A stretch of DNA of 24,000 nt from Solibacillus sp. CAU 1738 (lineage in GTDB: Bacteria; Bacillota; Bacilli; Bacillales_A; Planococcaceae), in the NCBI RefSeq assembly GCF_039888725.1, contig NZ_JBDQQN010000002.1, positions 578,024-602,023 on the forward strand, written 5' to 3'. Position 1 is the stretch's first letter. Each line of letters starts with the position of its first letter. Of this stretch, positions 1,551 to 19,594 are shown piece by piece. The notes beneath the pieces are model-generated. The model made no database searches, was not told the DNA's origin, and worked only from the letters and a program-made list of their open reading frames with translations. The position numbers and the translations under genes were made by a program.

Positions 1551-3008
1551 CTACTTTCCTAATAAGTTTTTGTAGCGATCCAATGGATTGGACTTGCTTG
1601 TGTATAGTTGATTTAGAGCTTGTGTTGTCATATCAACTAAATCATCATGTGCTGCATTCGGGAATGAAACAAGCTCCTCGATAACATCCTCTGACCAACT
1701 GCATATATTCGGATGGGGTAAAAATACATTGCCTGCCTCAAATAAAGGAGACACCGCATTTGCGCGTGCCTCCTTACCACCATTTGGATTAACGGGAATG
1801 ATACCGCTGATTTCATCTTTCAGCATCTCGATGATAGCTGTACCGTTCGCTTTATCCTCAATATATTTACTGCGTGCATTGGGCCACTTGTCGGACATAG
1901 CTCGTATTGCTTTCATTGTGTCAGCAAAACCCATACGTCTGTGGTCAATGTCCAACAAGAAATACTGCGCTTGCTTACGTGCCCATACACCACCAGCAAC
2001 AAAATCACTTGCTGACGAATCTTTAAACGTACAGTCCCACGATTGTGCTACCTTATCTAAATGAGTAGGCAATACGACTACATCATCACTTAAGCCCCAT
2101 TCACGCTTTTGTTCAGCTGTACGCACATAATAACGCACCCATTCGCGCTTGAATATGTTACCGCCTGCTGGGGATGGACGTTGTTGATATAACGAAGCCC
2201 ATGTACGGGAACCGACCTCGAATTTTTTAGCTTCTGCCCATTGCTCGTTAAAACCAAGTTCAGGACATAGCGCTTCACCAAATGAACGGCCTAATAAATC
2301 ATCATCGTCCTCTGCGATGGCTGGTAAGCGTAATCGAATCCAATTACGAGGGCTACGAGTAAGCAGGCGACCAATTAAATCATCTTCATTCCAACGTGTC
2401 ATGATCACTATTAGGCTTGCACCATCATGTAAACGCGTAGAAAGCGTAGCCTCCCATTCATCCCAAATATTATCTCGGATAGTTTGAGAACTTGCTTCCT
2501 TCATATTTTTAATAGGGTCATCGATAATCATTAAGTCAGCACCTTGACCAGTAATACTACCTCCGATACCAGTAGCAATCATGCCCCCACGTCTATCTTG
2601 TACGCCCCAGTCCTTCATAGCCCCATTCGATTCGGATAACCTTAAGTCAAACAGATTAGAAAACTCATTGAATTTATTGCGATTCAATCGACCGAATTTT
2701 GTCGCAAGTCCATCCGAATATGCAGCAGCTATAACACGTTTATCTGGATTTTTAGCCAAATAAAAAGACGGGAACGATTCTGTCACCGTCATGGATTTAC
2801 CGTGCCTTGGTGGCATTTCAATCAAAACAGATAACTGTTCTCCATCTGCTATACGTTGTAAAACGTCACATATTAATTCTGTATGACGGTAATGTTCGTA
2901 ATGCCCATGATGTACAAATTCTACATATTCACGGTAATTACGCTTAGCAAGCTCTCTCTGGGCTTCATTCGCTAATGTTTCAAGTTCCTTTTTTGATAGA
3001 GTTGGCAA
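1551..3008 (-). CDS. terL: Terminase large subunit
   Basis: 485 aa with a Walker A-like PPRHGKS and a Walker B-like LMIIDDP, plus a C-terminal nuclease-like half. It lies between terS and the portal. TTG start at 3008 follows GAGGAG and overlaps the terS end. Confidence 0.9.
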   Translation of the reverse strand: MPTLSKKELETLANEAQRELAKRNYREYVEFVHHGHYEHYRHTELICDVLQRIADGEQLSVLIEMPPRHGKSMTVTESFPSFYLAKNPDKRVIAAAYSDGLATKFGRLNRNKFNEFSNLFDLRLSESNGAMKDWGVQDRRGGMIATGIGGSITGQGADLMIIDDPIKNMKEASSQTIRDNIWDEWEATLSTRLHDGASLIVIMTRWNEDDLIGRLLTRSPRNWIRLRLPAIAEDDDDLLGRSFGEALCPELGFNEQWAEAKKFEVGSRTWASLYQQRPSPAGGNIFKREWVRYYVRTAEQKREWGLSDDVVVLPTHLDKVAQSWDCTFKDSSASDFVAGGVWARKQAQYFLLDIDHRRMGFADTMKAIRAMSDKWPNARSKYIEDKANGTAIIEMLKDEISGIIPVNPNGGKEARANAVSPLFEAGNVFLPHPNICSWSEDVIEELVSFPNAAHDDLVDMTTQALNQLYTSKSNPLDRYKNLLGK

Positions 3009-3480
3009 TAGCTCTCAACTCCTCATCTGTTAACTTACTCAAATCCATTTTAGTTTCAATTTCTCCGCTATGCTCAATTTCTTGTTTGTCAGTCCATAGA
3101 GTAAAACGCTTACCAATGAGTTCTGCAGCTTTAATACGCTCGCCCATTGTGGGAGGCATCTTTTTATCAATCACTTGCTCACCCATACCAATACCTTTTA
3201 ATGTAGCCGCAGTTGCTTCGCCACGTAGAATCGCTGTAAGTGTTTCGAGTATTTCTTGTTGATCAGCTACCCTTTCAGATTTCAACTCTTCCATGCGTTC
3301 ATCTATATAAAATTTTACGCTAACATTTGTTAACATTCGACTTCCTGCAGCTCTCGCTGTAGCTCCCTTCTTCACATTCGGATACGCCTTCAAATATGCA
3401 TCCGTAGCATTTCCTAGTTCGATATAGAAATCAACAAAAGCCTGCTGTTTCACTGTTAATTTACGTTCAATCAATGGCAT
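2980..3480 (-). CDS. terS: Terminase small subunit
   Basis: N-terminus (LTVKQQAFVDFYIELGNATDAYLKAYP) is typical of HTH-type small terminases and sits directly upstream of terL. The start is ambiguous: GTG 3483, ATG 3480 or TTG 3474. TTG has the best spacing to the GGGG at 3483-3486. Confidence 0.8.
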   Translation of the reverse strand: MPLIERKLTVKQQAFVDFYIELGNATDAYLKAYPNVKKGATARAAGSRMLTNVSVKFYIDERMEELKSERVADQQEILETLTAILRGEATAATLKGIGMGEQVIDKKMPPTMGERIKAAELIGKRFTLWTDKQEIEHSGEIETKMDLSKLTDEELRAIANSIKKGT

Positions 3481-3501
3481 CACCCCATTATGCTAATTGC
3501 T
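3479..3501 (-). repeat. Junction box copy 1 (ATCACCCCATTATGCTAATTGCT on the plus strand), native terS 5' junction
   Basis: This 23-mer is identical to 5392-5414 and differs at 2 positions from 5044-5066. It contains the GGGG that can serve as the terS SD. Confidence 0.9.
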
Positions 3502-3507
3502 AAATTT

Positions 3508-3537
3508 ATATAAAAGAAAAAGCACCCTTAGGTACTT
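3508..3537 (-). terminator. Intrinsic terminator after the 226-aa gene
   Basis: Minus strand reads AAGTACC-TAAG-GGTGCTT followed by TTTTCTTTTAT. It overlaps the stop codon at 3537-3539. Confidence 0.6.
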
Positions 3538-4217
3538 TATTCGCTAGTATGAAGATTTTTTATAAGTTTTTTAAATGTCTTGTTTATTTTAATTTGCCCA
3601 CCAGAATAGTTCAAAAATCCTCCAGTAATTTCGGAAATCAATCCTGTATTTTCTAGCCTTTTTACAATAAAATCAATATCATCTTCTTGAATCAAACACT
3701 TTTCAATTAATAATTCTCTCCACTTTATTTTCACTGAAAACTGAAGTTCATTTTCATGTTCGGATTTTTCGTACGTATTAAATGCATGATATATTACCGC
3801 AAGGGCCTTTATTTCAATTGGTGATAAATCTTTTAGTGAATATAAAAACTCTTCTACCAACCCCAAATCTTCAACATCTCCACGCAAGGCTGACATCAAT
3901 AATTTTGCATTCATTAACGATTTTTCTCGACTTCTGTTTTGGACTGAAGATTCAATAGCAATATTAAATATGTCATAATTTTCTTCGGATTCTAACCAAT
4001 TTACCAGAGTTACATCCTTCATTGCATTTATTTCCGAATATAAATCCTGTATAAAAAACTCGATTCTAGCCTGAATAAATTTATTTTCTCTACTTGAAAT
4101 TTTCTCGCTAATATACGGACCTAACCACGGTATTATTTGAATAACCCCTTTAAATTCTGCAGAGTTCATAAATCGATCTATACGTTTTTCAGGTAATATA
4201 TTCAATTCCCTTTCCAT
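3537..4217 (-). CDS. Hypothetical soluble protein, 226 aa (cassette gene A)
   Basis: Long ORF in an AT-rich cassette. The ORF-track start at 4226 is a GTG embedded in the SD GGAGGAGTG, so the in-frame ATG at 4217 is preferred. I recognise no family. Confidence 0.55.
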   Translation of the reverse strand: MERELNILPEKRIDRFMNSAEFKGVIQIIPWLGPYISEKISSRENKFIQARIEFFIQDLYSEINAMKDVTLVNWLESEENYDIFNIAIESSVQNRSREKSLMNAKLLMSALRGDVEDLGLVEEFLYSLKDLSPIEIKALAVIYHAFNTYEKSEHENELQFSVKIKWRELLIEKCLIQEDDIDFIVKRLENTGLISEITGGFLNYSGGQIKINKTFKKLIKNLHTSE

Positions 4218-4351
4218 TTCATTCACTCCTCCATTTTATAATATTTCAAGATAGGAAGTAAAAATCTTCAAAAAAATTACAGTATGATCGATAATCATTT
4301 TTCAGAGTAAAACTATAACATCTCTTTTCTAAATCTTTATTTTCCTTTTCA

Positions 4352-4936
4352 TTAACCTAACTCATTTACAATATCTTTTTCGTATTCTTTAAGCATTTCA
4401 ATAAATTCTTTCAATTTTTTTCTTACTTCAAACTTCTTGATATCGCTTATTAAATTATATGACTTAGCTAATTGCCCCCCCATTAATTCAGATTGTTTTA
4501 ATTCTGATAAAGCTTGAACAATATCTTTATATTTGTAATACAAATGAATATCTACTTTCATACATTTATCGTAAACATCTATATAATCCTCTAGTAATCT
4601 ATCAATCTCTTTTGGATAGTCTGGGATAATTGGATGGAACAAAACATTGTTGATTAAATTATGTTTTGTTCTAAGTTCATTTATTAACCTTATTTTTTCC
4701 GGTAGAGCTTTGAGCCCTTCAGTATTCTTATCATGCTTAATTGTTAATTTCACTCCTAAAAAGGTAATTCCTCCAGAAATCAAACCACCTAATATCGCTC
4801 CAATAAAACCTATTAATACACCTCCATCTATAGCTAATCCCTTAATTAAAAAGATATCTATAAATGCTGTGGCTGCCATAAAGCACAATAATCCTAATAT
4901 AAAAAAAATTAAAACGTCTTTCCATCTTTCGTTCAT
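4352..4936 (-). CDS. Predicted 2-TM membrane protein, 194 aa (cassette gene B), paralog of gene E
   Basis: ATG follows GGAGTAGGAGG. Two N-terminal hydrophobic helices include a glycine-rich segment (GFIGAILGGLISGGITFLGV), then a charged helical tail. It shares the motif GAxxGGxI..T..GV..TI...(L/I)P..I.L(I/L)N...H with the ORF at 6260-6769. Confidence 0.65.
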   Translation of the reverse strand: MNERWKDVLIFFILGLLCFMAATAFIDIFLIKGLAIDGGVLIGFIGAILGGLISGGITFLGVKLTIKHDKNTEGLKALPEKIRLINELRTKHNLINNVLFHPIIPDYPKEIDRLLEDYIDVYDKCMKVDIHLYYKYKDIVQALSELKQSELMGGQLAKSYNLISDIKKFEVRKKLKEFIEMLKEYEKDIVNELG

Positions 4937-4943
4937 TATTCAA

Positions 4944-4997
4944 CCTCCTACTCCATATTAGAGCAAAAGTCATACAAATACACTAATGTTTTACTAT
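4944..4997 (-). repeat. Leader/SD repeat, type I (copy upstream of gene B)
   Basis: By manual alignment, 50 of 54 positions are identical to 6778-6831. The repeat includes the SD GGAGTRGGAGG. Confidence 0.85.
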
Positions 4998-5043
4998 TTT
5001 ACTATATTTAAAACCACCTCCACCATCATTTGTTTATTTTGTA

Positions 5044-5066
5044 ATCACCCCGTTATGCTAGTTGCT
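5044..5066 (-). repeat. Junction box copy 2 (ATCACCCCGTTATGCTAGTTGCT)
   Basis: Two A-to-G differences from copies 1 and 3. It sits just after the hairpin that follows the 72-aa gene. Confidence 0.85.
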
Positions 5067-5080
5067 TATAAAATTGAAAT

Positions 5081-5102
5081 GCCACTTATTCACATAAGCG
5101 GC
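5081..5102 (-). terminator. Probable terminator hairpin after the 72-aa gene
   Basis: Minus strand reads GCCGCTTAT-GTGA-ATAAGTGGC (one G-U pair) followed by ATTTCAATTTTAT. The U tract is interrupted. Confidence 0.4.
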
Positions 5103-5109
5103 GTTGGAT

Positions 5110-5328
5110 TTAACCTAAAATATTCTTCAGGTTTTCAGTATGTGCTTCAAGGAATTGACTTTGTTCAGTTTTGTTTCTTATTACAAACTCATGTCTTCCT
5201 AAACCTGAAGAATCTTTTTTATCTTGGAAGTGACCTACAATTACAGTTCCGTTACCCTCTTCTAGAACTGTATGTTCCATTAGATAATTTCCAGAATTCA
5301 AGTTTTCGATAATTGTTTTTATATCCAT
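5110..5328 (-). CDS. Hypothetical small protein, 72 aa (cassette gene C)
   Basis: The ATG at 5328 lies 6 nt after GGAGTGGGAGGTG. The 90-aa ORF-track version starts upstream with no SD and simply translates the SD as MEWEV. Confidence 0.5.
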   Translation of the reverse strand: MDIKTIIENLNSGNYLMEHTVLEEGNGTVIVGHFQDKKDSSGLGRHEFVIRNKTEQSQFLEAHTENLKNILG

Positions 5329-5391
5329 TTTTCTCACCTCCCACTCCATCATAAAACAAACTGGAAGGTAATTCTTTAACATGATTTTGCT

Positions 5392-5414
5392 ATCACCCCA
5401 TTATGCTAATTGCT
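5392..5414 (-). repeat. Junction box copy 3 (ATCACCCCATTATGCTAATTGCT)
   Basis: Identical 23-mer to 3479-3501. It lies immediately after the terminator of the 214-aa gene. Confidence 0.9.
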
Positions 5415-5416
5415 TT

Positions 5417-5448
5417 ACGAAATAAATAAGCACCTTTAGTAGGTGCTT
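5417..5448 (-). terminator. Intrinsic terminator after the 214-aa gene
   Basis: Minus strand reads AAGCACCT-ACTAA-AGGTGCTT followed by ATTTATTT. The stem abuts the stop codon. Confidence 0.65.
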
Positions 5449-6092
5449 TACTTTGAATTTAATATCCAATTTGATGGAATTACTTCCTTATCACTAATTA
5501 ACTCTTCTTGACCTTCAATTATTAAATATATTTTTTGATATAAATCTCTATGAGAATATACATACTTAAATTTTTCTTTACTTGTTGTCGAGTATTTCAA
5601 CTCAATATTATCAAATTCCACTTTTAGAATTCCCTCAATATCATTAATATAGAATGGCAAAGGGATAAATATCTCTACATTTCTTCTCATATGATCTAAA
5701 TAAAAATCATAACAATTTTCTTCGTAAACATTTGAGTCCATCGTTAATTTTATTTGACAATCCATAATATATTCTGGATCCCCTATGAACTTAAACATAA
5801 AAAAATTCATAAAACCTTCAGTATGTATAGTAGCAATGTCGATATTTTTTTCATAATACTCAGAAAAGAGAATCTTAGATTCTGGGTGTCTATTTATTTC
5901 TTGTAATTTATAACTTCCTCTGATCTCTTCACATATAATATAAGGTCTAGCCTTCTTTACCCCCTCTTTTTCAATGGTTTTTAATTGATGACTCATTTGC
6001 ATCGTTGCTATCCAATACGCACCCATAACACCTATTAAACCACCAAATAAACTCAATATACCACTTGTTAATGTTGCATCTTCTGGTGTCAT
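5448..6092 (-). CDS. Predicted single-pass membrane protein, 214 aa (cassette gene D)
   Basis: ATG follows GGGGGTGGAAGGG. One N-terminal glycine-rich TM helix (GILSLFGGLIGVMGAYWIA), then a roughly 170-aa soluble domain. I recognise no family. Confidence 0.6.
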   Translation of the reverse strand: MTPEDATLTSGILSLFGGLIGVMGAYWIATMQMSHQLKTIEKEGVKKARPYIICEEIRGSYKLQEINRHPESKILFSEYYEKNIDIATIHTEGFMNFFMFKFIGDPEYIMDCQIKLTMDSNVYEENCYDFYLDHMRRNVEIFIPLPFYINDIEGILKVEFDNIELKYSTTSKEKFKYVYSHRDLYQKIYLIIEGQEELISDKEVIPSNWILNSK

Positions 6093-6259
6093 ATAATCCC
6101 TTCCACCCCCATCTTAAATAAAAAAAGAAGGTAATTCCTAATCACCTTTTTGCTAGTAAAATCTGAAGGATATTATTATAAAATTTGATAATATTCTTCC
6201 TCTAATTCCTTTATTAAATTTCCACATTCTGCGTAATAAGTTAAACATGTGTCCAATAG

Positions 6260-6769
6260 TTATTGTGTATTTGTGATTGTAGGTTCAAAATTCTTAACTT
6301 TTACACCTTCCAAATGAATATACAAATCAGAAGTTTGCTTAATAATCTTTTTATATAAATTATACATATCTTTTCCCATTACTAATAATTCATTGTTACT
6401 CATCCTATCGTTTAATTCTGAGTTAATATTAAATAAAAAAGTTTTCAAAGAAGTTTTATCCTCATTATCTTTTTTCATGAGTTCGATTTGAAAATCTAAA
6501 ATATATTGATGTTCTTTATTTAATAGTTTGATTAATTGCGGAATTTGACTTAAACTTTCTTTTCTTCTAGCTTCAATTATGGTTTTGTTAACTCCAATTA
6601 ACGTAATAGAACCACCAATAACCGCTCCAAAAAAGGCTATTATTCCAGCAACTAACGTATAATCCTTCACATCAAAGAAGTATGTATAAACTCCAAAAAA
6701 TATCAGCAGCATATTCAATATCAAAAGTGAAATAAATATTATGTACATAGAATTTTTTATATTATTCAA
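6260..6769 (-). CDS. Predicted 2-TM membrane protein, about 169 aa (cassette gene E), paralog of gene B
   Basis: TTG at 6769 lies 6 nt after GGAGTGGGAGGTG (alternative ATG at 6748). The ORF-track start at 6817 translates the leader/SD as MEWEV. Two hydrophobic helices including GIIAFFGAVIGGSITLIGV. Confidence 0.6.
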   Translation of the reverse strand: MNNIKNSMYIIFISLLILNMLLIFFGVYTYFFDVKDYTLVAGIIAFFGAVIGGSITLIGVNKTIIEARRKESLSQIPQLIKLLNKEHQYILDFQIELMKKDNEDKTSLKTFLFNINSELNDRMSNNELLVMGKDMYNLYKKIIKQTSDLYIHLEGVKVKNFEPTITNTQ

Positions 6770-6777
6770 TTTTATCA

Positions 6778-6831
6778 CCTCCCACTCCATAATAGAGCAA
6801 AAGGCATACAAATACACTAATATTTTACTAT
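6778..6831 (-). repeat. Leader/SD repeat, type I (copy upstream of gene E)
   Basis: 50 of 54 positions identical to 4944-4997. A degenerate junction-box relative follows at about 6850-6880 (CCGCCCCTAGCCTTATGCTACTCATTGGCT). Confidence 0.85.
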
Positions 6832-6892
6832 CCTCAAAACCACACCAAACTCCGCCCCTAGCCTTATGCTACTCATTGGCTGTTTGATGCAG

Positions 6893-6932
6893 TTTTCAAA
6901 ATAGAAAAACCACCTACCGAAGTAGATGGTTT
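6893..6932 (-). terminator. Strong intrinsic terminator downstream of the HNH gene region
   Basis: Minus strand reads AAACCATCTAC-TTCG-GTAGGTGGTTT: an 11-bp stem with one G-U pair and a UUCG loop, followed by TTCTATTTT. Confidence 0.7.
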
Positions 6933-7139
6933 GAATTGTGTTAGGCTCTAGTAACTGAAGCCCCTCATATATTTTTGTAGGACGAAGTCTTACAACCTCG
7001 GGGATAAAGAGCAGCTCCGTGCCTATCTCATATGGTACATGGGATTTTTTAAAACAAAAAACATTTTACATTTGTTCCTTTTGTTACATCCGTTACATTT
7101 GTTCCGAGCTTCTATAAAAGTAACAAGGATACAGATACT

Positions 7140-8081
7140 TTATTTACCAAAAATTTCATTGTAATGATACTTAATAAAGTTAGGATTTAAATCTGTTCTA
7201 GAATATGCTAAATCTTTTCCATGAAACAAATTATCAGTATTAATATGTATGATTTTCCCTGTTGTAGGTTCAATCGCTATTATTCCGTAATCAAATTCAA
7301 CGTGATGATTGGGACATAAAATTATAATATTACTCTTAATATCAGGACCTTGATGAATTCCACCTAATTTCTTCAAATGATGCCCTTCTGAATATTTTTT
7401 TTCTGAAGGTAATATTATTTGCTCTCCGCAAATTTGACATTTCCCATCATATTCTTTTTTTAGTTCTCTTACAATCTTAGTATCTCTTACGATTCTATTA
7501 ATAACAGATGATACACGTGTTGTCTGCCCATCTTCATCTCTAGTAGTACTTTCCTCTTCATCTCCAACTCTAATTGAAGTTTTAGATTCTACATCCATTG
7601 AATCTAAATCTATATTTAAAAATTCCTTTAATTTATTAAATAGTTCATCACTTACAAGTGCTAAGTATTTTTGAGCAGTTTTAAATATATTATTTTCTTC
7701 TGTGTAAAAAGATCTTTGTTTTGTTATTTCTATAAGAAATTCTCGATATTCACTTAAAAAATCCTCAACCCGTTTTTTTTCTTCAAATTCATGGTACCCA
7801 ATTAAAGGTATACGATAGTAAGTTTCATAACCACCCCATTTACCAGGAATAGGTGGAGCTACATGAACAATAGTATAAGCACTACTTACAAATGAAATTC
7901 CCCAAAATCTATGATTTTTGCCTTCTTTTGAACCTTTAACAGAATGAATTACCAAGTCACCTTCTTTTGGCAATTTCATTATATTCCAACTACTTGCACA
8001 TGGACTCCATAATACTTCACCTAACTCCCAACCTTCACCACCATGAACTGGGTTTGTTAATTCAACAAAAATATTCATCAT
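7140..8081 (-). CDS. HNH endonuclease fusion protein, 313 aa, with an unassigned N-terminal domain
   Basis: The C-terminus carries an HNH/zinc signature (CQICGEQI...EGHHLKKL...NIIILCPNHHVEFD). The roughly 190-aa N-terminus has GGEGWELGEVLWSP...EGDLVIHSVKG, which resembles N-terminal domains I associate with restriction-type nucleases. SD is AGAGGGGGAAG. Confidence 0.8.
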   Translation of the reverse strand: MMNIFVELTNPVHGGEGWELGEVLWSPCASSWNIMKLPKEGDLVIHSVKGSKEGKNHRFWGISFVSSAYTIVHVAPPIPGKWGGYETYYRIPLIGYHEFEEKKRVEDFLSEYREFLIEITKQRSFYTEENNIFKTAQKYLALVSDELFNKLKEFLNIDLDSMDVESKTSIRVGDEEESTTRDEDGQTTRVSSVINRIVRDTKIVRELKKEYDGKCQICGEQIILPSEKKYSEGHHLKKLGGIHQGPDIKSNIIILCPNHHVEFDYGIIAIEPTTGKIIHINTDNLFHGKDLAYSRTDLNPNFIKYHYNEIFGK

Positions 8082-8281
8082 CTTCCCCCTCTATACTTCA
8101 TTTACTAAATTAGTATCACAAATAATTATAAACTATTCTGACAAATAATAATTTAACATTAGCATTCTCCTAGCTTTATTGGTATCAAAGCTGGTATCAC
8201 TAAACAAAAAAGCTTGGAATAACCCCCATAAATAAGGCTATCCAAACTTTTTCTAGTTGTTTTTTAATTATACCCGCTCTA

Positions 8282-8704
8282 TTACAACACTAGCATTTGT
8301 TTTAACACGTTGTTTCTGACCCTGAATATTGTTGTACTTGATAGCTTCATGTGCTTACCAATTGACCTCATACTATCACCATTCAGCAAACGATGCAGAA
8401 TCTCCATTTCTCTATCGCCTACTACTAACTGAATGCGCTTTTGTACCTCTGACACTTTCCGACGGTACTGTTGAATACGGAAGCCACCATATTGAGTACG
8501 ACGATGAACCTCGTAAAATACAGGATCACTTGTCCCACCACTTGCTTTTGGTAATGTTGAATCAATTCCATAACTAGCAACCTTTGCCCCTTTAATAACA
8601 GCTACATCCATTTCAGCCTCTTTGATTGTTTCAATCATCCAGTGATAATCTTCAATCCACTGCAATAAGTTGCCCTCTGATACAAATATTTGCCCTTTAC
8701 TCAT
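8282..8704 (-). CDS. Putative phage late-gene transcriptional activator (sigma-70 region-4-like / ArpU-RinA-like)
   Basis: 140 aa. The C-terminus (REMEILHRLLNGDSMRSIGKHMKLSSTTIFRVRNNVLKQM) looks like a region-4 HTH. It sits between the replication genes and the packaging genes. SD is AGGGGG. Confidence 0.6.
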   Translation of the reverse strand: MSKGQIFVSEGNLLQWIEDYHWMIETIKEAEMDVAVIKGAKVASYGIDSTLPKASGGTSDPVFYEVHRRTQYGGFRIQQYRRKVSEVQKRIQLVVGDREMEILHRLLNGDSMRSIGKHMKLSSTTIFRVRNNVLKQMLVL

Positions 8705-8732
8705 AAGCTGCCCCCTATGCTATAATAATAGT

Positions 8733-8796
8733 GTCATCCTTACATAAGAGGAACCTATCATCACCGCAGCGCCTTGTACTCGCTGCGGCTTTTTAT
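8733..8796 (+). ncRNA. Candidate about 65-nt antisense RNA opposite the 5' UTR of the late-activator gene
   Basis: Extended -10 TGCTATAAT at 8718-8726. Intrinsic terminator CCGCAGCG-N9-CGCTGCGG plus CTTTTTAT at 8764-8796, correctly oriented only for the plus strand. Confidence 0.3.
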
Positions 8797-8878
8797 ACTA
8801 AAAATTCCCTTCATAAATATTATCTATTTATTTAAAATTTACGATATAATGTACTAACATATATCTTAAGGGGCTAGT

Positions 8879-8968
8879 ATGCCTGGGACCAGGATTAGCA
8901 ACTTTATTTATTCTGCTAGTAACATTACAGTTACTCTTGAAAGCAAAAAAGAATCAGGTGGTGGTTAA
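8879..8968 (+). CDS. Candidate micro-ORF, 29 aa
   Basis: TATAAT at 8845-8850 and SD AAGGGG 5 nt before the ATG. Sequence MPGTRISNFIYSASNITVTLESKKESGGG. Below the ORF-track cutoff and speculative. Confidence 0.25.
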   Translation: MPGTRISNFIYSASNITVTLESKKESGGG

Positions 8969-8969
8969 T

Positions 8970-9068
8970 ATGGATAATAATTTCTTGTTTGAAACTTTAT
9001 CAGATATTGTTGGTCATTTAGCCGCTATTTGCGGCTCGGCTTTAGTAACAGTTGCTCTGGCGCCTTAA
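8970..9068 (+). CDS. Candidate micro-ORF, 32 aa with a hydrophobic C-terminus
   Basis: ATG lies 1 nt after the previous stop (TAATATG) and SD AGGTGGTGG sits inside the upstream ORF. Sequence MDNNFLFETLSDIVGHLAAICGSALVTVALAP. Speculative. Confidence 0.25.
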   Translation: MDNNFLFETLSDIVGHLAAICGSALVTVALAP

Positions 9069-18031: not shown

Positions 18032-18913
18032 GTGAAAGGTAGTAGAAACGAGGGCCTGAAAAATGGTTTTAATATGTTCTTTTCTCCATATTTAGAAGGT
18101 TACAGAAACCGTGTGAATGAATTATATGCAGATGAGTATAGAGAAAATAGAGAGTCGTTCTTTTTTATGAACCCTGTAAAATTACATGTACTACTAAATG
18201 ATATGAATACTCATTTGGTATTATCAGAAAATGACGTGGATCAAATAGGTTTTATCGATTGTAAAGATATGCAGCATGAAGAATTTTCTGTATTACGTAA
18301 AGGTCCAGAAAAATTAAAGATTGAGTTTATTAAGTCTGAATTTAGTATTACAGAATATATAACAGACTTTCATTATTATGATTTAGGTGAATATGCAGGT
18401 CTAATGTTTAATGAAGTGAATCACGGTGGGTTAATTGAACGGAGCAAAGTATGGGGAATTGAAAATGCTGATTCACACGAGATGAACTATCGTTTTAATA
18501 AAGCTTTACAATCAGCTTTTGAACCTTCGACATTATTATCAGATCTTAATACTGATTTAATCATTGAGAAAGTTAACACCCCCTCATTCGCATATGAATT
18601 CGGGGAATCCGTTAAGGCTTATAATGCAGGTATTTATTTAGCTGCTTCTACTACTGGTGGGATTGCATTAGAAAATATTTTACGTATTTTAATTAAAAAC
18701 AAAACCAGTGAACATCTACCGAAAGACACATATATTAAAGATTCATTAGCTGTTTTAAAACGAAATCATGTACTATCAAATCGACTAGCTGCGTCAGTAA
18801 GTAATTTAAGAGACATTAGGAATAGTAATTCGCATACTAATGAAGATCCAGTTCGTAAAACTACTGTAGATCATCTATATGCAACAATTGAAGATTTAGC
18901 GATGCTCCTGTAA
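18032..18913 (+). CDS. Hypothetical protein, 293 aa, with a C-terminal HEPN/DUF4145-like domain
   Basis: GTG start 6 nt after TAGGGGGA. The last roughly 100 aa follow the DUF4145/HEPN template (AYNAGIYLAASTTGGIALENILR...LSNRLAASVSNLRDIRNSNSHTNE...VDHLYATIEDL) and include an Rx4H motif (RNSNSH). I do not recognise the N-terminal 190 aa. Confidence 0.6.
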   Translation: MKGSRNEGLKNGFNMFFSPYLEGYRNRVNELYADEYRENRESFFFMNPVKLHVLLNDMNTHLVLSENDVDQIGFIDCKDMQHEEFSVLRKGPEKLKIEFIKSEFSITEYITDFHYYDLGEYAGLMFNEVNHGGLIERSKVWGIENADSHEMNYRFNKALQSAFEPSTLLSDLNTDLIIEKVNTPSFAYEFGESVKAYNAGIYLAASTTGGIALENILRILIKNKTSEHLPKDTYIKDSLAVLKRNHVLSNRLAASVSNLRDIRNSNSHTNEDPVRKTTVDHLYATIEDLAMLL

Positions 18914-19072: not shown

Positions 19073-19153
19073 ATTCACTCCTTAAATTGTTTATATATTT
19101 ATTTTAATAGAATGTTTGTGATAAAGCACCCAAAACAGAAACGAAGTGATTGC

Positions 19154-19594
19154 ATGTGGATTAGAGAGAGAGTAAAGCAACTTACATCTAAATACAATAC
19201 GAGTTGTCCATATCAATTAGCTAAAAGTTTAAAAATACACGTTTTACAACATGATTTACATCCAGAGATTCGAGGTTACTACAAATATGAACGCCGAAAT
19301 AGGTTTATCGTAATAAATAGTAATCTTGATGAAAATTATCAGCGATTTGTTTGCGCACACGAACTCGGACATGCTGTGATGCATAAAAAAGTGAATACAC
19401 CGTTTATGCGCCAAAATACATTTTTATCTGTTGATCGAATTGAACGAGAAGCAAACAAATTCGCTGCTGAACTATTAATCTCCGACGCATGTTTAAAAGA
19501 TTGTATTTTCGAACAAATGACAACCTATGACATAGCTTCATTACATAATGTACCACTAGAGCTGGTAGAACTGAAATGTAAGGGGCTATTTTAA
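19154..19594 (+). CDS. immA: ImmA/IrrE-family zinc metalloprotease (anti-repressor protease)
   Basis: HELGHAVMH (HExxH), about 146-160 aa, directly upstream of the integrase as in ImmR-ImmA-Int modules. Start is the ATG at 19154 or 19112; neither has a strong SD. Confidence 0.85.
   Translation: MWIRERVKQLTSKYNTSCPYQLAKSLKIHVLQHDLHPEIRGYYKYERRNRFIVINSNLDENYQRFVCAHELGHAVMHKKVNTPFMRQNTFLSVDRIEREANKFAAELLISDACLKDCIFEQMTTYDIASLHNVPLELVELKCKGLF

What the first reader, a model, noticed from the sequence alone, without database searches (positions are those of the whole stretch)
4352..6769. Paralogous 2-TM proteins, each followed by a partner gene: candidate exclusion or abortive-infection modules
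Gene B (4352-4936) and gene E (6260-6769) share an architecture: two N-terminal TM helices, the second glycine-rich, followed by a charged helical tail. They also share the local motif GAxxGGxI..T..GV..TI...(L/I)P..I.L(I/L)N...H and nearly identical leaders. Neither is followed by a terminator. Each runs into a partner gene that is terminated: E then D (214 aa, one glycine-rich TM plus a soluble domain), and B then A (226 aa, soluble). That gives two parallel two-gene units, a membrane protein plus a divergent partner, in an accessory slot of a prophage. This is the pattern expected for membrane-acting superinfection-exclusion or Abi effectors. I recognise none of the four proteins as a named family.
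Basis: partly seen in the sequence, partly recalled or inferred. Interest (0 to 1): 0.75.

Follow-up and report, generated by a model that had tools for sequence, protein, structure and literature searches.

The report
Stacked single-gene prophage accessory cassettes
B and E belong to one large, unnamed family of small two-pass membrane proteins that sit as stand-alone accessory genes just upstream of the DNA-packaging genes in Bacillus-group prophages; they may be phage-defence genes, but nothing shows that they work in pairs with the genes next to them.

Summary
B (4352-4936) and E (6260-6769) are true homologues with two N-terminal TM helices, a glycine-rich TM2, a helical tail and near-identical leaders.

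The two-gene-module reading is not supported:
- B's only homologue lacks A.
- A's only placed homologue lacks B.
- D's only placed homologue stands alone and has two TMs itself.
- E-family genes occur alone, or as tandem paralogues, in other prophages.

E is cut short by an in-frame TAA that removes its last 27 codons.

B and E belong to an unnamed family: 633 cluster representatives, about 200 aa, Bacillales. TM2 is conserved (60% mean pairwise identity) and the cytoplasmic bundle diverges fast (13-15%). No Pfam, PADLOC, PDB or holin match was found.

The shared leader is generic. A terminator plus a covarying 15-bp hairpin heads terS or many unrelated cargo genes in at least 68 viral contigs.

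The region is a low-GC stack of accessory cassettes between the late regulator and terS of a Solibacillus prophage. The HNH nuclease gene is included on composition and position alone. A membrane-acting defence role is plausible by analogy (PdpSau, AbiP, Abi-alpha) but untested. Expression timing is unknown.

The parts
8282..8704 (-). Late-gene regulator (140 aa) with a C-terminal GerE/sigma-region-4-like HTH. It marks the upstream border of the accessory slot.
   Evidence: phrog_1058 1.3e-33 and Pfam GerE 1.3e-5. Homologues at 42-66% identity sit upstream of the same slot in L003, L006-L008 and L010.
7140..8081 (-). 313-aa HNH_2 nuclease with an unassigned N-terminal domain of about 190 aa. 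It is the first gene of the low-GC island. It may be a type IV (modification-dependent) restriction enzyme or a packaging-associated HNH.
   Evidence: Pfam HNH_2 1.5e-6. PADLOC mREase_IV 2.9e-5. NCBIfam PT-DNA_restrict 5.9e-9, far below cutoff and covering the HNH part only. phrog_15103 2.4e-10.
7064..7105 (-). Conserved non-coding 42-mer GAACAAATGTAACGGATGTAACAAAAGGAACAAATGTAAAATG, containing three ATGTAA-type repeats. It could be a late promoter or regulator site. Function unknown.
   Evidence: 90-95% identical copies in L116, L074 (x2), L064, L031, L067 and L070; weaker copies (76-86%) in L061, L072 and L027.
6907..6932 (-). Intrinsic terminator immediately upstream of the E leader.
   Evidence: 11-bp stem plus T-run. 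Also present in the predicted fold.
6834..6897 (-). Type I leader hairpin 'P1': GAAAACTGCATCAAAC ... GTTTGGTGTGGTTTTGA. A 15-bp long-range helix encloses a variable insert.
   Evidence: Fold of 6830-6935: -41.8 kcal/mol, z = -5.5. The 19-mer of the 3' arm is exact in 68 viral contigs. Covariation with a second sequence type.
6770..6833 (-). 3' part of the E leader, with RBS GGGAGGTG. It is shared with the B leader.
   Evidence: Repeat D3, 6777-6831 vs 4943-4997, 93% identity.
6260..6769 (-). Gene E: a member of the 2-TM family, 169 aa, truncated by an in-frame TAA (6262-6260).
   Evidence: The alignment to P0004 runs through the stop: 47% identity over 178 aa, with the stop opposite Tyr.
6176..6259 (-). 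Former C-terminus of E (27 codons plus stop), now outside the ORF.
   Evidence: LLDTCLTYYAECGNLIKELEEEYYQIL aligns with the C-termini of P0004 and P0022.
5448..6092 (-). Gene D: 214 aa, one Gly-rich TM (11-29) plus a cytoplasmic domain of unknown fold. It has its own leader, related to that of C.
   Evidence: repeat D1. Its homologue L043:2818-3705 (41% identity) has two TMs and stands alone. No hit to the B/E HMM.
5428..5448 (-). Terminator after D.
5110..5328 (-). Gene C: 72 aa, soluble.
   Evidence: An 86%-identical homologue lies directly upstream of terS in L031.
5081..5102 (-). Terminator after C.
5036..5067 (-). Copy 2 of the 32-nt junction repeat 'D2' (AAGCAACTAGCATAACGGGGTGAT...). It forms the left border of the B-A insertion. 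Copy 1 is at 5384-5415.
4943..4997 (-). B leader. It matches the 3' part of the E leader but lacks the P1 5' arm.
4352..4936 (-). Gene B: an intact, divergent member of the 2-TM family, 194 aa.
3537..4217 (-). Gene A: 226 aa, soluble, helical. Weak sub-threshold similarity to Abi_alpha.
   Evidence: Pfam PF14337 E = 0.014, and 0.0027 / 0.072 for its two homologues, all in the same register. AF2 pLDDT 65.8 with no fold match.
3519..3538 (-). Terminator after A.
3471..3502 (-). Copy 3 of junction repeat D2. It carries the terS ribosome-binding site and forms the right border of the B-A insertion.
2980..3483 (-). terS (small terminase). It marks the downstream border of the slot.
   Evidence: Pfam Terminase_2 2.5e-26.

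Best explanation
SHOWN

Window 3500-8100 is a low-GC stack of accessory ('moron') genes (HNH, E, D, C, B, A). It fills the slot between the late-regulator gene and terS of a Solibacillus prophage. Independence rests on separate occurrence of homologues for B, A, D and the E family, and on its own terminator for C. HNH is placed in the stack on composition and position only.

B and E are two diverged copies of one large, unnamed Bacillales prophage family:
- about 200 aa;
- a predicted N-in/C-in hairpin of two TM helices;
- a highly conserved glycine-zipper TM2, consensus IAFxGAIIGGSITLIGVxxTI;
- TM2 continues as a long helix into a fast-diverging cytoplasmic helical bundle.

E has lost its last helix to a nonsense codon and is probably defective.

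D is a different membrane protein of the same architectural class. A is an unrelated soluble protein. Neither is a conserved partner of E or B.

The shared leader is a generic element of this phage group: a terminator, then a covarying 15-bp hairpin, then an RBS. It precedes terS itself or many unrelated cargo genes.

INFERRED

Each 2-TM protein acts alone as a membrane-anchored conflict protein. The variable cytoplasmic bundle would recognise a phage- or infection-derived cue. The invariant glycine-zipper TM2 would oligomerise and disturb the membrane. The result would be abortive infection or premature lysis, or less likely a block to DNA entry. This parallels the single-gene, membrane-anchored PdpSau and AbiP.

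Whether the genes are expressed from the prophage or only with the late operon is not known.
For: Architecture and homology.

Family size and shape:
- 633 representatives at E <= 1e-3 and 234 at <= 1e-10, matched over their full length.
- TM2 has 60% mean pairwise identity, against 24% for TM1 and 13-15% for the cytoplasmic part.

Accessory nature:
- Low GC.
- Presence/absence differs between relatives. L031 has C-terS where the window has C-[B-A]-terS.
- Tandem paralogues occur in L003 and L005.
- A distant member lies in a Bacillus atrophaeus island with integrase fragments, outside any late operon.
- No match to the two family members queried (P0011 and B) in 50,697 cultured phage genomes.

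Defence-type neighbours:
- a type IV-like HNH nuclease in the window;
- DarT-Macro beside the family gene in L004;
- a caspase-like Peptidase_C14 in L008;
- A's Abi_alpha-like signal.

Stand-alone status.

Not lysis or virion proteins: no consistent Pfam or PHROG family in 102 members, and only generic helical bundles in PDB and BFVD.

Precedents:
- PdpSau and AbiP, with an N-terminal TM, a cytoplasmic domain and membrane depolarisation (PMC10127798).
- The single-gene prophage Abi-alpha (PMC6356687).
- A conserved promoter with alternating defence cargo in Listeria prophages (10.1101/2025.02.27.640495).
Against: - No experiment and no homology link the family to defence. PADLOC has no hit.
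- Only 3 weak PADLOC hits appear among 42 other cargo genes of the same leader. The slot is therefore not demonstrably a defence island.
- The leader also heads terS and lies downstream of the late regulator (50 of 52 hairpins). The cargo may be late lytic genes rather than lysogen-expressed morons.
- No sigma-A-like promoter is evident in the E or B leaders, although 31 of 66 other leaders have TTGAGA-16-TATATT.
- Topology rests on hydropathy and the positive-inside rule only.
- Sampling is biased. Many loci were retrieved through the leader itself.
Confidence: 0.5

Rival explanations
1. E-D and B-A are two parallel two-gene systems: a membrane effector plus a divergent partner acting as sensor, antitoxin or co-effector. 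Each pair would work as an exclusion or Abi module.
For: - No terminator or significant hairpin lies between E and D or between B and A.
- B+A are present as a single 1565-bp block flanked by D2 direct repeats, relative to L031.
- Each pair ends in a terminator.
Against: - Homologues of B, A and D each occur without the supposed partner.
- E-family genes occur alone or with other family members, and never with A-, C- or D-like genes, in 11 protein-retrieved loci and about 140 further loci.
- D and A carry their own leader or 5'UTR, homologous to those of other cassettes.
- E is truncated.
- D has the same Gly-rich TM architecture, and its L043 homologue has two TMs. It looks like another effector-type protein, not a partner.
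Confidence: 0.12
2. The 2-TM proteins are late-expressed phage accessory functions serving the phage's own lytic cycle. Candidate roles are tuning lysis timing (antiholin- or holin-modulator-like), shutting the infected cell to superinfection late in infection, or countering host or satellite interference. They would not be lysogen-expressed host defence.
For: - The leader they carry is the one that directly precedes terS in several phages.
- The leader lies almost only downstream of the late regulator on the same strand.
- The E and B leaders lack a recognisable sigma-A promoter.
- They are membrane proteins at the head of the late operon.
Against: - Every cassette is preceded by an intrinsic terminator. 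About half of the leaders have a good sigma-A-like promoter, which is the typical moron design.
- The genes are dispensable and variable between close relatives.
- They are absent from cultured phages.
- One member lies outside any late operon.
- There is no holin-family similarity.
- At about 200 aa with a 130-aa folded cytoplasmic domain, they are unlike canonical holins.
Confidence: 0.25
3. The genes are decaying or selectively neutral cargo with no current function in this prophage.
For: - E carries a nonsense codon that removes its last helix.
- D lacks the first TM that its L043 homologue has.
- B, A and D have only one or two homologues among 5.8 billion clusters (for D).
Against: - B, A, D and C have intact ORFs with good RBSs.
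- The family is large, and TM2 is strongly conserved (60% identity, invariant Gly/Thr/Val positions), which implies purifying selection.
Confidence: 0.08
4. The 2-TM proteins are membrane-anchored anti-sigma-like regulators of the adjacent sigma-region-4-like late regulator.
For: - They lie downstream of the late regulator gene in several loci.
- The cytoplasmic domain is a helical bundle.
Against: - Copy number is variable (0-3).
- The genes are not always adjacent to the regulator.
- The cytoplasmic domain is the least conserved part.
- The topology, with a C-terminal cytoplasmic domain after two TMs, is unlike known anti-sigma factors.
- One member sits in an island without the regulator.
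Confidence: 0.03

Closest known systems
PdpSau (S. aureus prophages) and lactococcal AbiP: single-gene, membrane-anchored abortive-infection proteins (PMC10127798)
   Same: Each is a prophage or mobile accessory gene that acts alone. Each has an N-terminal membrane anchor (N-in) and a cytoplasmic C-terminal domain. PdpSau changes membrane potential and permeability on infection, which is the mechanism proposed here.
   Different: No sequence or fold similarity was found. PdpSau and AbiP have one TM and an OB-fold nucleic-acid-binding domain. B and E have two TMs, a glycine-zipper TM2 and an all-helical bundle. PdpSau sits next to the lysis genes, not upstream of terS.
Abi-alpha (EF2833, Pfam PF14337 Abi_alpha, formerly DUF4393) of E. 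faecalis V583 prophage 6 (PMC6356687)
   Same: It is a single prophage gene that causes premature lysis of infected cells. Gene A and both its homologues give Abi_alpha as their best or only Pfam hit, in the same register.
   Different: All three scores (13.5-18.2 bits) are below the 29-bit gathering cutoff. The three sequences are 65-69% identical, so they do not count as independent evidence. The A model is of low confidence and found no fold match. This comparison concerns A only, not B or E.
TERi locus of Listeria comK prophages: a conserved promoter region followed by alternating, unrelated defence genes (10.1101/2025.02.27.640495)
   Same: Both have a conserved non-coding head with interchangeable cargo genes at one fixed prophage locus. 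In Listeria the alternates tested were all anti-phage.
   Different: The leader sequence, host group and cargo all differ. The TerI proteins described there are small and target the terminase. Here the leader is a terminator plus a covarying hairpin, and it also heads terS.
Superinfection-exclusion membrane proteins (T4 Imm, P22 SieA, lactococcal Sie2009). From general knowledge, and PMC10883804 for SieA.
   Same: They are small phage- or prophage-encoded inner-membrane proteins that act alone and block DNA entry. They are often orphan families.
   Different: No homology is detectable. B and E are predicted to expose only a loop of about 6-9 residues outside the cell, with the bulk of the protein in the cytoplasm. 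This fits intracellular sensing better than a block at the cell surface.
GlsB/YeaQ/YmgE (transglycosylase-associated) small stress membrane proteins
   Same: They share a glycine-zipper TM motif. NCBI names one family member (P0043, Bacillus ndiopicus) this way.
   Different: None of the 102 members scanned matched a GlsB/YeaQ/YmgE-type Pfam model at E <= 0.01. Those proteins are about 80 aa and lack a cytoplasmic bundle.

Membership tests
Unnamed 2-TM prophage family (defined here by alignments A2-A4) | Full-length match of about 200 aa to the family profile, including the TM2 motif G-x3-GG..T..GV. | tested here: met
   E: 195 bits. B: 44.1 bits over residues 41-192 against the profile built without B. 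G46, G50, G51 and V62 of B are invariant in 102 members.
Unnamed 2-TM prophage family (applied to D) | A match to the family profile beyond the TM segment. | tested here: not met
   D scores -2.5 bits. Only the Gly-rich TM aligns locally. DNA-level similarity is limited to 27 nt of the TM at 78-81%.
Abi_alpha (PF14337), applied to gene A | Score at or above the Pfam gathering threshold (29 bits) over the domain. | tested here: not met
   15.8, 18.2 and 13.5 bits for A, P0024 and P0025. The register is consistent (protein ~95-200 to profile 45-146), but all scores are sub-threshold.
Abi_alpha (PF14337), applied to gene A | An abortive-infection phenotype (premature lysis) conferred by the single gene. 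| not testable with these tools
   Needs cloning and phage challenge.
Holins (Pfam, NCBIfam and PHROG holin families) | Sequence match to a holin family; small size (under about 150 aa) with a short charged C-tail; location in the lysis cassette. | tested here: not met
   - NCBIfam BlyA: E = 0.7.
- One of 102 members hits Phage_holin_5_2, at E = 0.0096.
- The proteins have a 130-aa folded bundle.
- The genes lie upstream of terS, not in a lysis cassette.
2-TM effector domains of CBASS and related systems (SLATT and similar), and other PADLOC defence proteins | Profile match, and linkage to a nucleotide cyclase or sensor gene. | tested here: not met
   No PADLOC or Pfam hit for B or E or for 102 members. 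No cyclase-type neighbour appears in any locus.
Two-gene toxin/immunity or effector/partner system | Conserved adjacency of the two gene families across genomes. | tested here: not met
   B without A (L001), A without B (L011), D without E (L043), and E-family genes without D (L002-L010). The sample is small: one placed homologue each for A, B and D.
Prophage 'moron' cassette | An accessory gene, dispensable between relatives, with atypical composition and bracketed by its own transcription signals. | tested here: inconclusive
   Met: low GC, the indel against L031, and terminators upstream and downstream.

Open: an own promoter. A sigma-A-like promoter is predicted in 31 of 66 related leaders, but not in the E or B leaders.
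Type IV modification-dependent restriction enzyme (applied to the neighbouring HNH gene) | An HNH nuclease fused to a modified-DNA reader domain. | tested here: inconclusive
   The HNH_2 domain is met (1.5e-6). PADLOC mREase_IV (2.9e-5) and the PT-DNA_restrict hit cover only the HNH part. The N-terminal ~190 aa are unassigned.
Rfam RNA families (applied to the leader hairpin) | A covariance-model match. | tested here: not met
   No hit at E <= 1 in window 3300-9000. Nothing over the leaders of six other loci.

The most novel reading that the evidence does not exclude
The conserved 'terminator + covarying 15-bp hairpin' leader may be an undescribed cis-element marking the boundaries of an exchangeable accessory-gene array at the entrance of the late operon in Lysinibacillus/Solibacillus/Bacillus prophages.

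It could be a structured RNA that lets late (antiterminated) transcription read through while gating cargo expression. It could also be a hairpin that promotes cassette shuffling.

Its commonest cargo, the 2-TM glycine-zipper family that includes B and E, would then be a new family of single-protein, membrane-permeabilising abortive-infection sensors. Their hypervariable cytoplasmic bundle would set phage specificity.
Probability: 0.15. Interest if true: 0.75.

Novelty: new variant of a known kind. Interest (0 to 1): 0.45.

Why it matters
If the 2-TM family is shown to protect against phages, it would add a widespread single-gene membrane defence family to the catalogue. The family has at least 633 sequence clusters, is restricted so far to Bacillales, and is absent from Pfam and PADLOC. 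Its design is clear: a conserved membrane 'effector' helix and a fast-evolving cytoplasmic 'sensor'.

The slot itself is easy to find through its conserved leader. It is a ready-made source of about 40 further unknown cargo families for defence or counter-defence screening, much as the TERi locus proved to be in Listeria.

The leader hairpin is a candidate new regulatory RNA tied to phage late transcription.

If the genes turn out to be ordinary late accessory genes, the finding is a routine piece of prophage mosaicism.

Tried and rejected
**Searches that found nothing useful**
- Named-family assignment of A-E with Pfam, PADLOC, PHROGs and NCBIfam: nothing at threshold.
- Nucleotide search of the whole window, tblastn of B, P0011 and D, and blastn of the leader against 50,697 cultured phages: no match.
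- D in IMG/VR by peptide patterns: nothing.
- Genome-collection scan with the E-family alignment: only one locus, L012. The 102-sequence alignment was too diverse to make patterns.
- AFDB fold search: library unavailable.
- Foldseek of the B model against PDB and BFVD: only generic helical bundles or uncharacterised phage proteins, best E = 0.29 and 0.008.
- Profile against PDB sequences: de novo four-helix bundles and apolipoprotein, a compositional effect.
- A: nothing in PDB by sequence. Its model (pLDDT 65.8) gave no BFVD match.
- Rfam for the leader: nothing. No tRNA or tmRNA in the window.

**Ideas considered and rejected**
- Holin or lysis protein: wrong size, wrong position and no family match.
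- Anti-sigma factor: the cytoplasmic domain is too variable and copy number varies.
- D as a family member: the HMM score is negative.
- The leader as a B/E-specific regulatory signal: it heads terS and dozens of unrelated genes.
- A sigma-A promoter in the E or B leaders: none convincing.
- Single-base variants of the type I hairpin, read by eye from the sequences, did not establish covariation (about 4 consistent, 4 inconsistent). The support comes from the type I against type II comparison and from variation within type II.

Full report
**1. What is in the window**

All relevant genes are on the minus strand. In transcription order they are:

- a late regulator (8704-8282; phrog_1058, GerE-type HTH);
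- an HNH_2 nuclease (8081-7140);
- a spacer of about 230 nt ending in a terminator (6932-6907);
- E (6769-6260);
- D (6092-5448), followed by a terminator;
- a 72-aa gene C (5328-5110), followed by a terminator;
- B (4936-4352);
- A (4217-3537), followed by a terminator;
- terS (3483-2980), terL and the portal gene.

Further along are RecT/YqaJ, a helicase loader, an antirepressor, the repressor and the integrase. The host gene miaB follows. This is a prophage of Solibacillus sp. CAU 1738. The stretch 3500-8100 has 27-31% GC, against about 40% in the flanking phage genes.

**2. Check of the observation**

- B and E each have two hydrophobic segments near the N-terminus, and the second is Gly-rich. 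D has one such segment. A and C have none.
- The residues after TM2 are strongly basic in both proteins. By the positive-inside rule the small N-terminus and the large C-terminal part are cytoplasmic. This is an inference; no topology predictor was available.
- An AF2 model of B built on 19 sequences (pLDDT 80.8) shows TM1, a short loop, and TM2 continuing as one helix to residue 99. A bundle of helices at 107-193 follows, with pLDDT above 90.
- B and E align at 35% over 72 residues, E = 8e-9.
- B scores 44.1 bits over residues 41-192 against a profile built only from E-type proteins. The best of 500 shuffles of B scores 7.9 bits. The similarity is therefore homology over the whole protein from TM2 onward, not just TM composition.
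- The leaders are 93% identical over 55 nt.
- Neither spacer (E-D, B-A) holds a significant hairpin (z = -0.9 and -0.4).

The description is correct. Three things were missed: gene C, the truncation of E, and the nature of the leader.

**3. E is truncated**

E stops at a TAA. The next 27 codons, in the same frame, read LLDTCLTYYAECGNLIKELEEEYYQIL. With the stop masked, E aligns to P0004 at 47% identity over 178 residues, straight through the stop. The stop lies opposite a Tyr, and the C-terminal D-C-YY-C...LE-EY residues are conserved. The extension also lengthens the match to P0022 from 51 to 178 residues. Intact relatives are 190-220 aa. E has lost the last helix of its bundle. The cause is either a one-base change or a sequencing error.

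**4. The family**

- Word-indexed searches found one homologue of B and 19 of E among 5.8 billion clusters.
- A full HMM scan of 1.84 billion representatives with the B+E alignment found 633 proteins at E <= 1e-3 and 234 at <= 1e-10. Nearly all are 185-255 aa and matched end to end.
- Named sources are Lysinibacillus, Solibacillus, Bacillus subtilis/atrophaeus/licheniformis, B. ndiopicus and Halobacillus. All are annotated 'hypothetical', except one called 'GlsB/YeaQ/YmgE family'.
- In 102 members four positions of TM2 are invariant (G46, G50, G51 and V62 of B), and T58 and G61 nearly so.
- Mean pairwise identity is 60% in TM2, 24% in the N-terminus plus TM1, 15% in the juxtamembrane helix and 13% in the bundle.
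- None of the 102 members has a consistent Pfam or PHROG family. B and E have no PADLOC hit.
- PDB and BFVD fold searches give only generic helical bundles and uncharacterised phage proteins.
- There is no support for a holin, lysis or virion role.

**5. Are there partners?**

| Gene | Homologue and locus | What surrounds it |
|---|---|---|
| B | 73% identity, L001 | WDGH-domain gene, B-like gene, two small ORFs, terS, terL. No A. |
| A | 65% identity, L011 | Directly upstream of terS, behind its own terminator. Upstream sequence TTGCAA-N16-TATAAT, read by eye as sigma-A-like. Neighbours unrelated to B/E. |
| D | 41% identity, L043 | Stands alone behind its own terminator. Has two TMs, the second Gly-rich. 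|
| E family | several loci | Only gene between late regulator and terS in L006/L007. Three tandem copies in L003, two in L005. Next to DarT-Macro in L004 and near a caspase-like protease in L008. |

No A-, C-, D- or HNH-like ORF occurs near any family gene in about 150 loci. At least 10 of 25 family genes are followed within 200 nt by the next leader hairpin, so they are monocistronic cassettes.

One point favours a B-A link. L031 is a close relative: its C is 86% identical and its terS is similar. There C is followed by a terminator, the D2 repeat and terS. The window has exactly the extra 1565 bp [B leader-B-A-terminator-D2] inserted at the ...GGGGTGAT junction. B and A therefore travel as one block here. 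A nevertheless keeps a 5'UTR homologous to that of the solitary A gene in L011.

On balance the genes are juxtaposed independent cassettes. The sample for A, B and D is only one placed homologue each.

**6. The leader**

Upstream of E lie, in order:

- a terminator;
- GAAAACTGCATCAAACAGCC;
- about 25 nt;
- GGGGCGGAGTTTGGTGTGGTTTTGA;
- about 55 nt;
- the RBS.

The two boxes pair over 15 bp, three of them G.U pairs. The region folds at -41.8 kcal/mol, z = -5.5. The 19-mer of the 3' box occurs exactly in 68 IMG/VR contigs.

The first ORF after it was examined in 55 non-redundant cases:

- a 2-TM family member in 13;
- a small terminase in at least 5;
- otherwise unrelated proteins, among them a pentapeptide-repeat protein, DUF6731, UPF0489, DUF4177 and many with no match;
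- 25 of the 55 have a TM segment.

A second sequence type (GAAAAGTGAGTATCGA ... TCGGTACTTACTTTTGA) occupies the same position and also forms 14-15 pairs.

On 33 distinct arm pairs:

| Measure | Observed | Control |
|---|---|---|
| Cells paired | 93.9% | 76% in shuffles (0/500 reach the observed value); 36-47% with slid partners |
| Pairs changed on both sides | 8 of 15 | not different from shuffles (mean 7.9; 448/500 reach the observed value) |
| Covariation score | 0.496 | 0.218 (0/500 reach the observed value) |

Caveats: instances were pre-filtered for at least 10 pairs, and most double changes trace to the single split between the two types. Some variation within a type is also compensatory.

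A strict pattern finds 111 such hairpins in the fetched loci, against 3 in reversed sequence. In loci with a late-regulator homologue, 50 of 52 lie downstream of it on the same strand. Rfam has no matching family.

In 31 of 66 distinct type I leaders the 3' arm supplies the -35 of a good sigma-A-like promoter, most often TTGAGA-16-TATATT (22 of the 31). The E and B leaders lack this.

The 'nearly identical leaders' of B and E therefore reflect a generic element that marks the entrance of the late operon and of each inserted cassette. They do not show a link between B and E. The element's function is open. It could be a promoter context, a read-through or processing signal, or a recombination linker.

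**7. Mechanism**

Shown:
- a large family with a constrained glycine-zipper TM2 and a hypervariable cytoplasmic bundle;
- accessory, mobile and often multi-copy genes at a fixed prophage hot spot, sometimes beside known defence genes;
- no conserved partner.

Inferred, by analogy with PdpSau and AbiP (PMC10127798) and with the single-gene prophage Abi-alpha (PMC6356687): a one-protein sensor-effector. The bundle would detect an infection cue. TM2 would oligomerise and compromise the membrane. The outcome would be abortive infection or premature lysis. I put this at about 0.5.

The main rival, at about 0.25, is a late-expressed function for the phage's own cycle. The leader is the late-operon leader, and no host-type promoter is evident for E or B.

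The two-gene model gets about 0.12.

**8. Gene A and the neighbours**

A and its two homologues each give Pfam Abi_alpha as best or only hit, in the same register, at 13.5-18.2 bits against a cutoff of 29. This is a lead, not membership. The A model was poor and matched nothing.

The HNH protein has an HNH_2 domain with weak type IV restriction signals and an unassigned N-terminal half.

**9. Novelty and verdict**

The kind of thing is well known: prophage accessory cassettes encoding small membrane proteins, possibly for exclusion or abortive infection. This particular family and the structured leader are undescribed in the libraries searched.

The pairing interpretation is not supported. The defence idea stays plausible and untested.

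Noticed in passing
window 6834-6897 (-), with terminator 6907-6932; also L001-L147, e.g. L013:4185-4247 and L019:3828-3886: A conserved leader made of an intrinsic terminator followed by a 15-bp long-range hairpin.
- It comes in two sequence types that covary: 93.9% of cells paired against 76% in shuffles.
- 111 copies occur in the fetched loci, against 3 in reversed-sequence controls.
- Almost all lie downstream of the late regulator.
- It heads terS or diverse cargo genes.
- Rfam has no matching family.
   Followed up: partly
window 6260-6262 and 6176-6259 (-): An in-frame TAA truncates E. The 27 codons after it still align with the C-termini of intact relatives, with the stop opposite a Tyr in P0004.
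   Followed up: yes
window 3471-3502, 5036-5067, 5384-5415: Three copies of a 32-nt junction repeat (AAGCAA(T/C)TAGCATAA(T/C)GGGGTGAT) that includes the terS ribosome-binding site. Copies 2 and 3 flank the B-A block. This block is exactly the 1565-bp difference from the related phage contig L031.
   Followed up: yes
window 7064-7105 (-): A conserved non-coding 42-mer with three ATGTAA-type repeats (GAACAAATGTAACGGATGTAACAAAAGGAACAAATGTAAAATG), just after the HNH gene. Copies at 90-95% identity occur in six other loci (seven copies), with weaker copies in three more. It may be a late promoter or regulator-binding array, and a terminator lies about 130 nt downstream.
   Followed up: partly
An 86%-identical copy lies directly upstream of terS in L031. 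No family match.
   Followed up: partly
window 7140-8081 (-): A 313-aa HNH_2 nuclease with an unassigned N-terminal ~190 aa. It gives weak hits to type IV and phosphorothioate-dependent restriction models, over the HNH part only. It could be a modification-dependent restriction enzyme or a packaging-associated HNH.
   Followed up: partly
L027:1459-2481 (-), L041:11454-12182 (-), L003:6724-7623 (+), L043:2818-3705 (+): Other cargo proteins of the same slot carry a similar Gly-rich TM (W/F-G-x-x-x-GG-I-x-G-x-x-A-V..TT) fused to quite different C-terminal domains of 240-340 aa. L043:2818-3705 is the D homologue; L003:6724-7623 scores as a member of the B/E family. The glycine-zipper helix may be a shared module across several cargo families.
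   Followed up: no
L004:3843-6666: In a Lysinibacillus fusiformis chromosome, a family member (P0016) lies immediately downstream of a Macro-domain gene and a DarT gene (the DarTG defence/toxin-antitoxin pair), inside a degraded prophage.
   Followed up: no
window 18032-18913 (+) and 19112-19594 (+): Two ORFs (293 and 160 aa) lie between the repressor and the integrase, on the lysogeny-module strand. This is the classic position for lysogen-expressed exclusion or Abi genes. The 293-aa protein has no Pfam match at E <= 1e-4; the 160-aa ORF was not searched.
   Followed up: no
type II leaders, e.g. L032:2900-2961, L044:1596-1658: The loop inside the type II hairpin carries a C-rich run (UUUCCUCCCCUUUGA), flanked by a short inner helix GCAG/CUGC. 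The run is complementary to the GGGAGG ribosome-binding sites downstream. It could be an anti-Shine-Dalgarno element. This was not tested.
   Followed up: no
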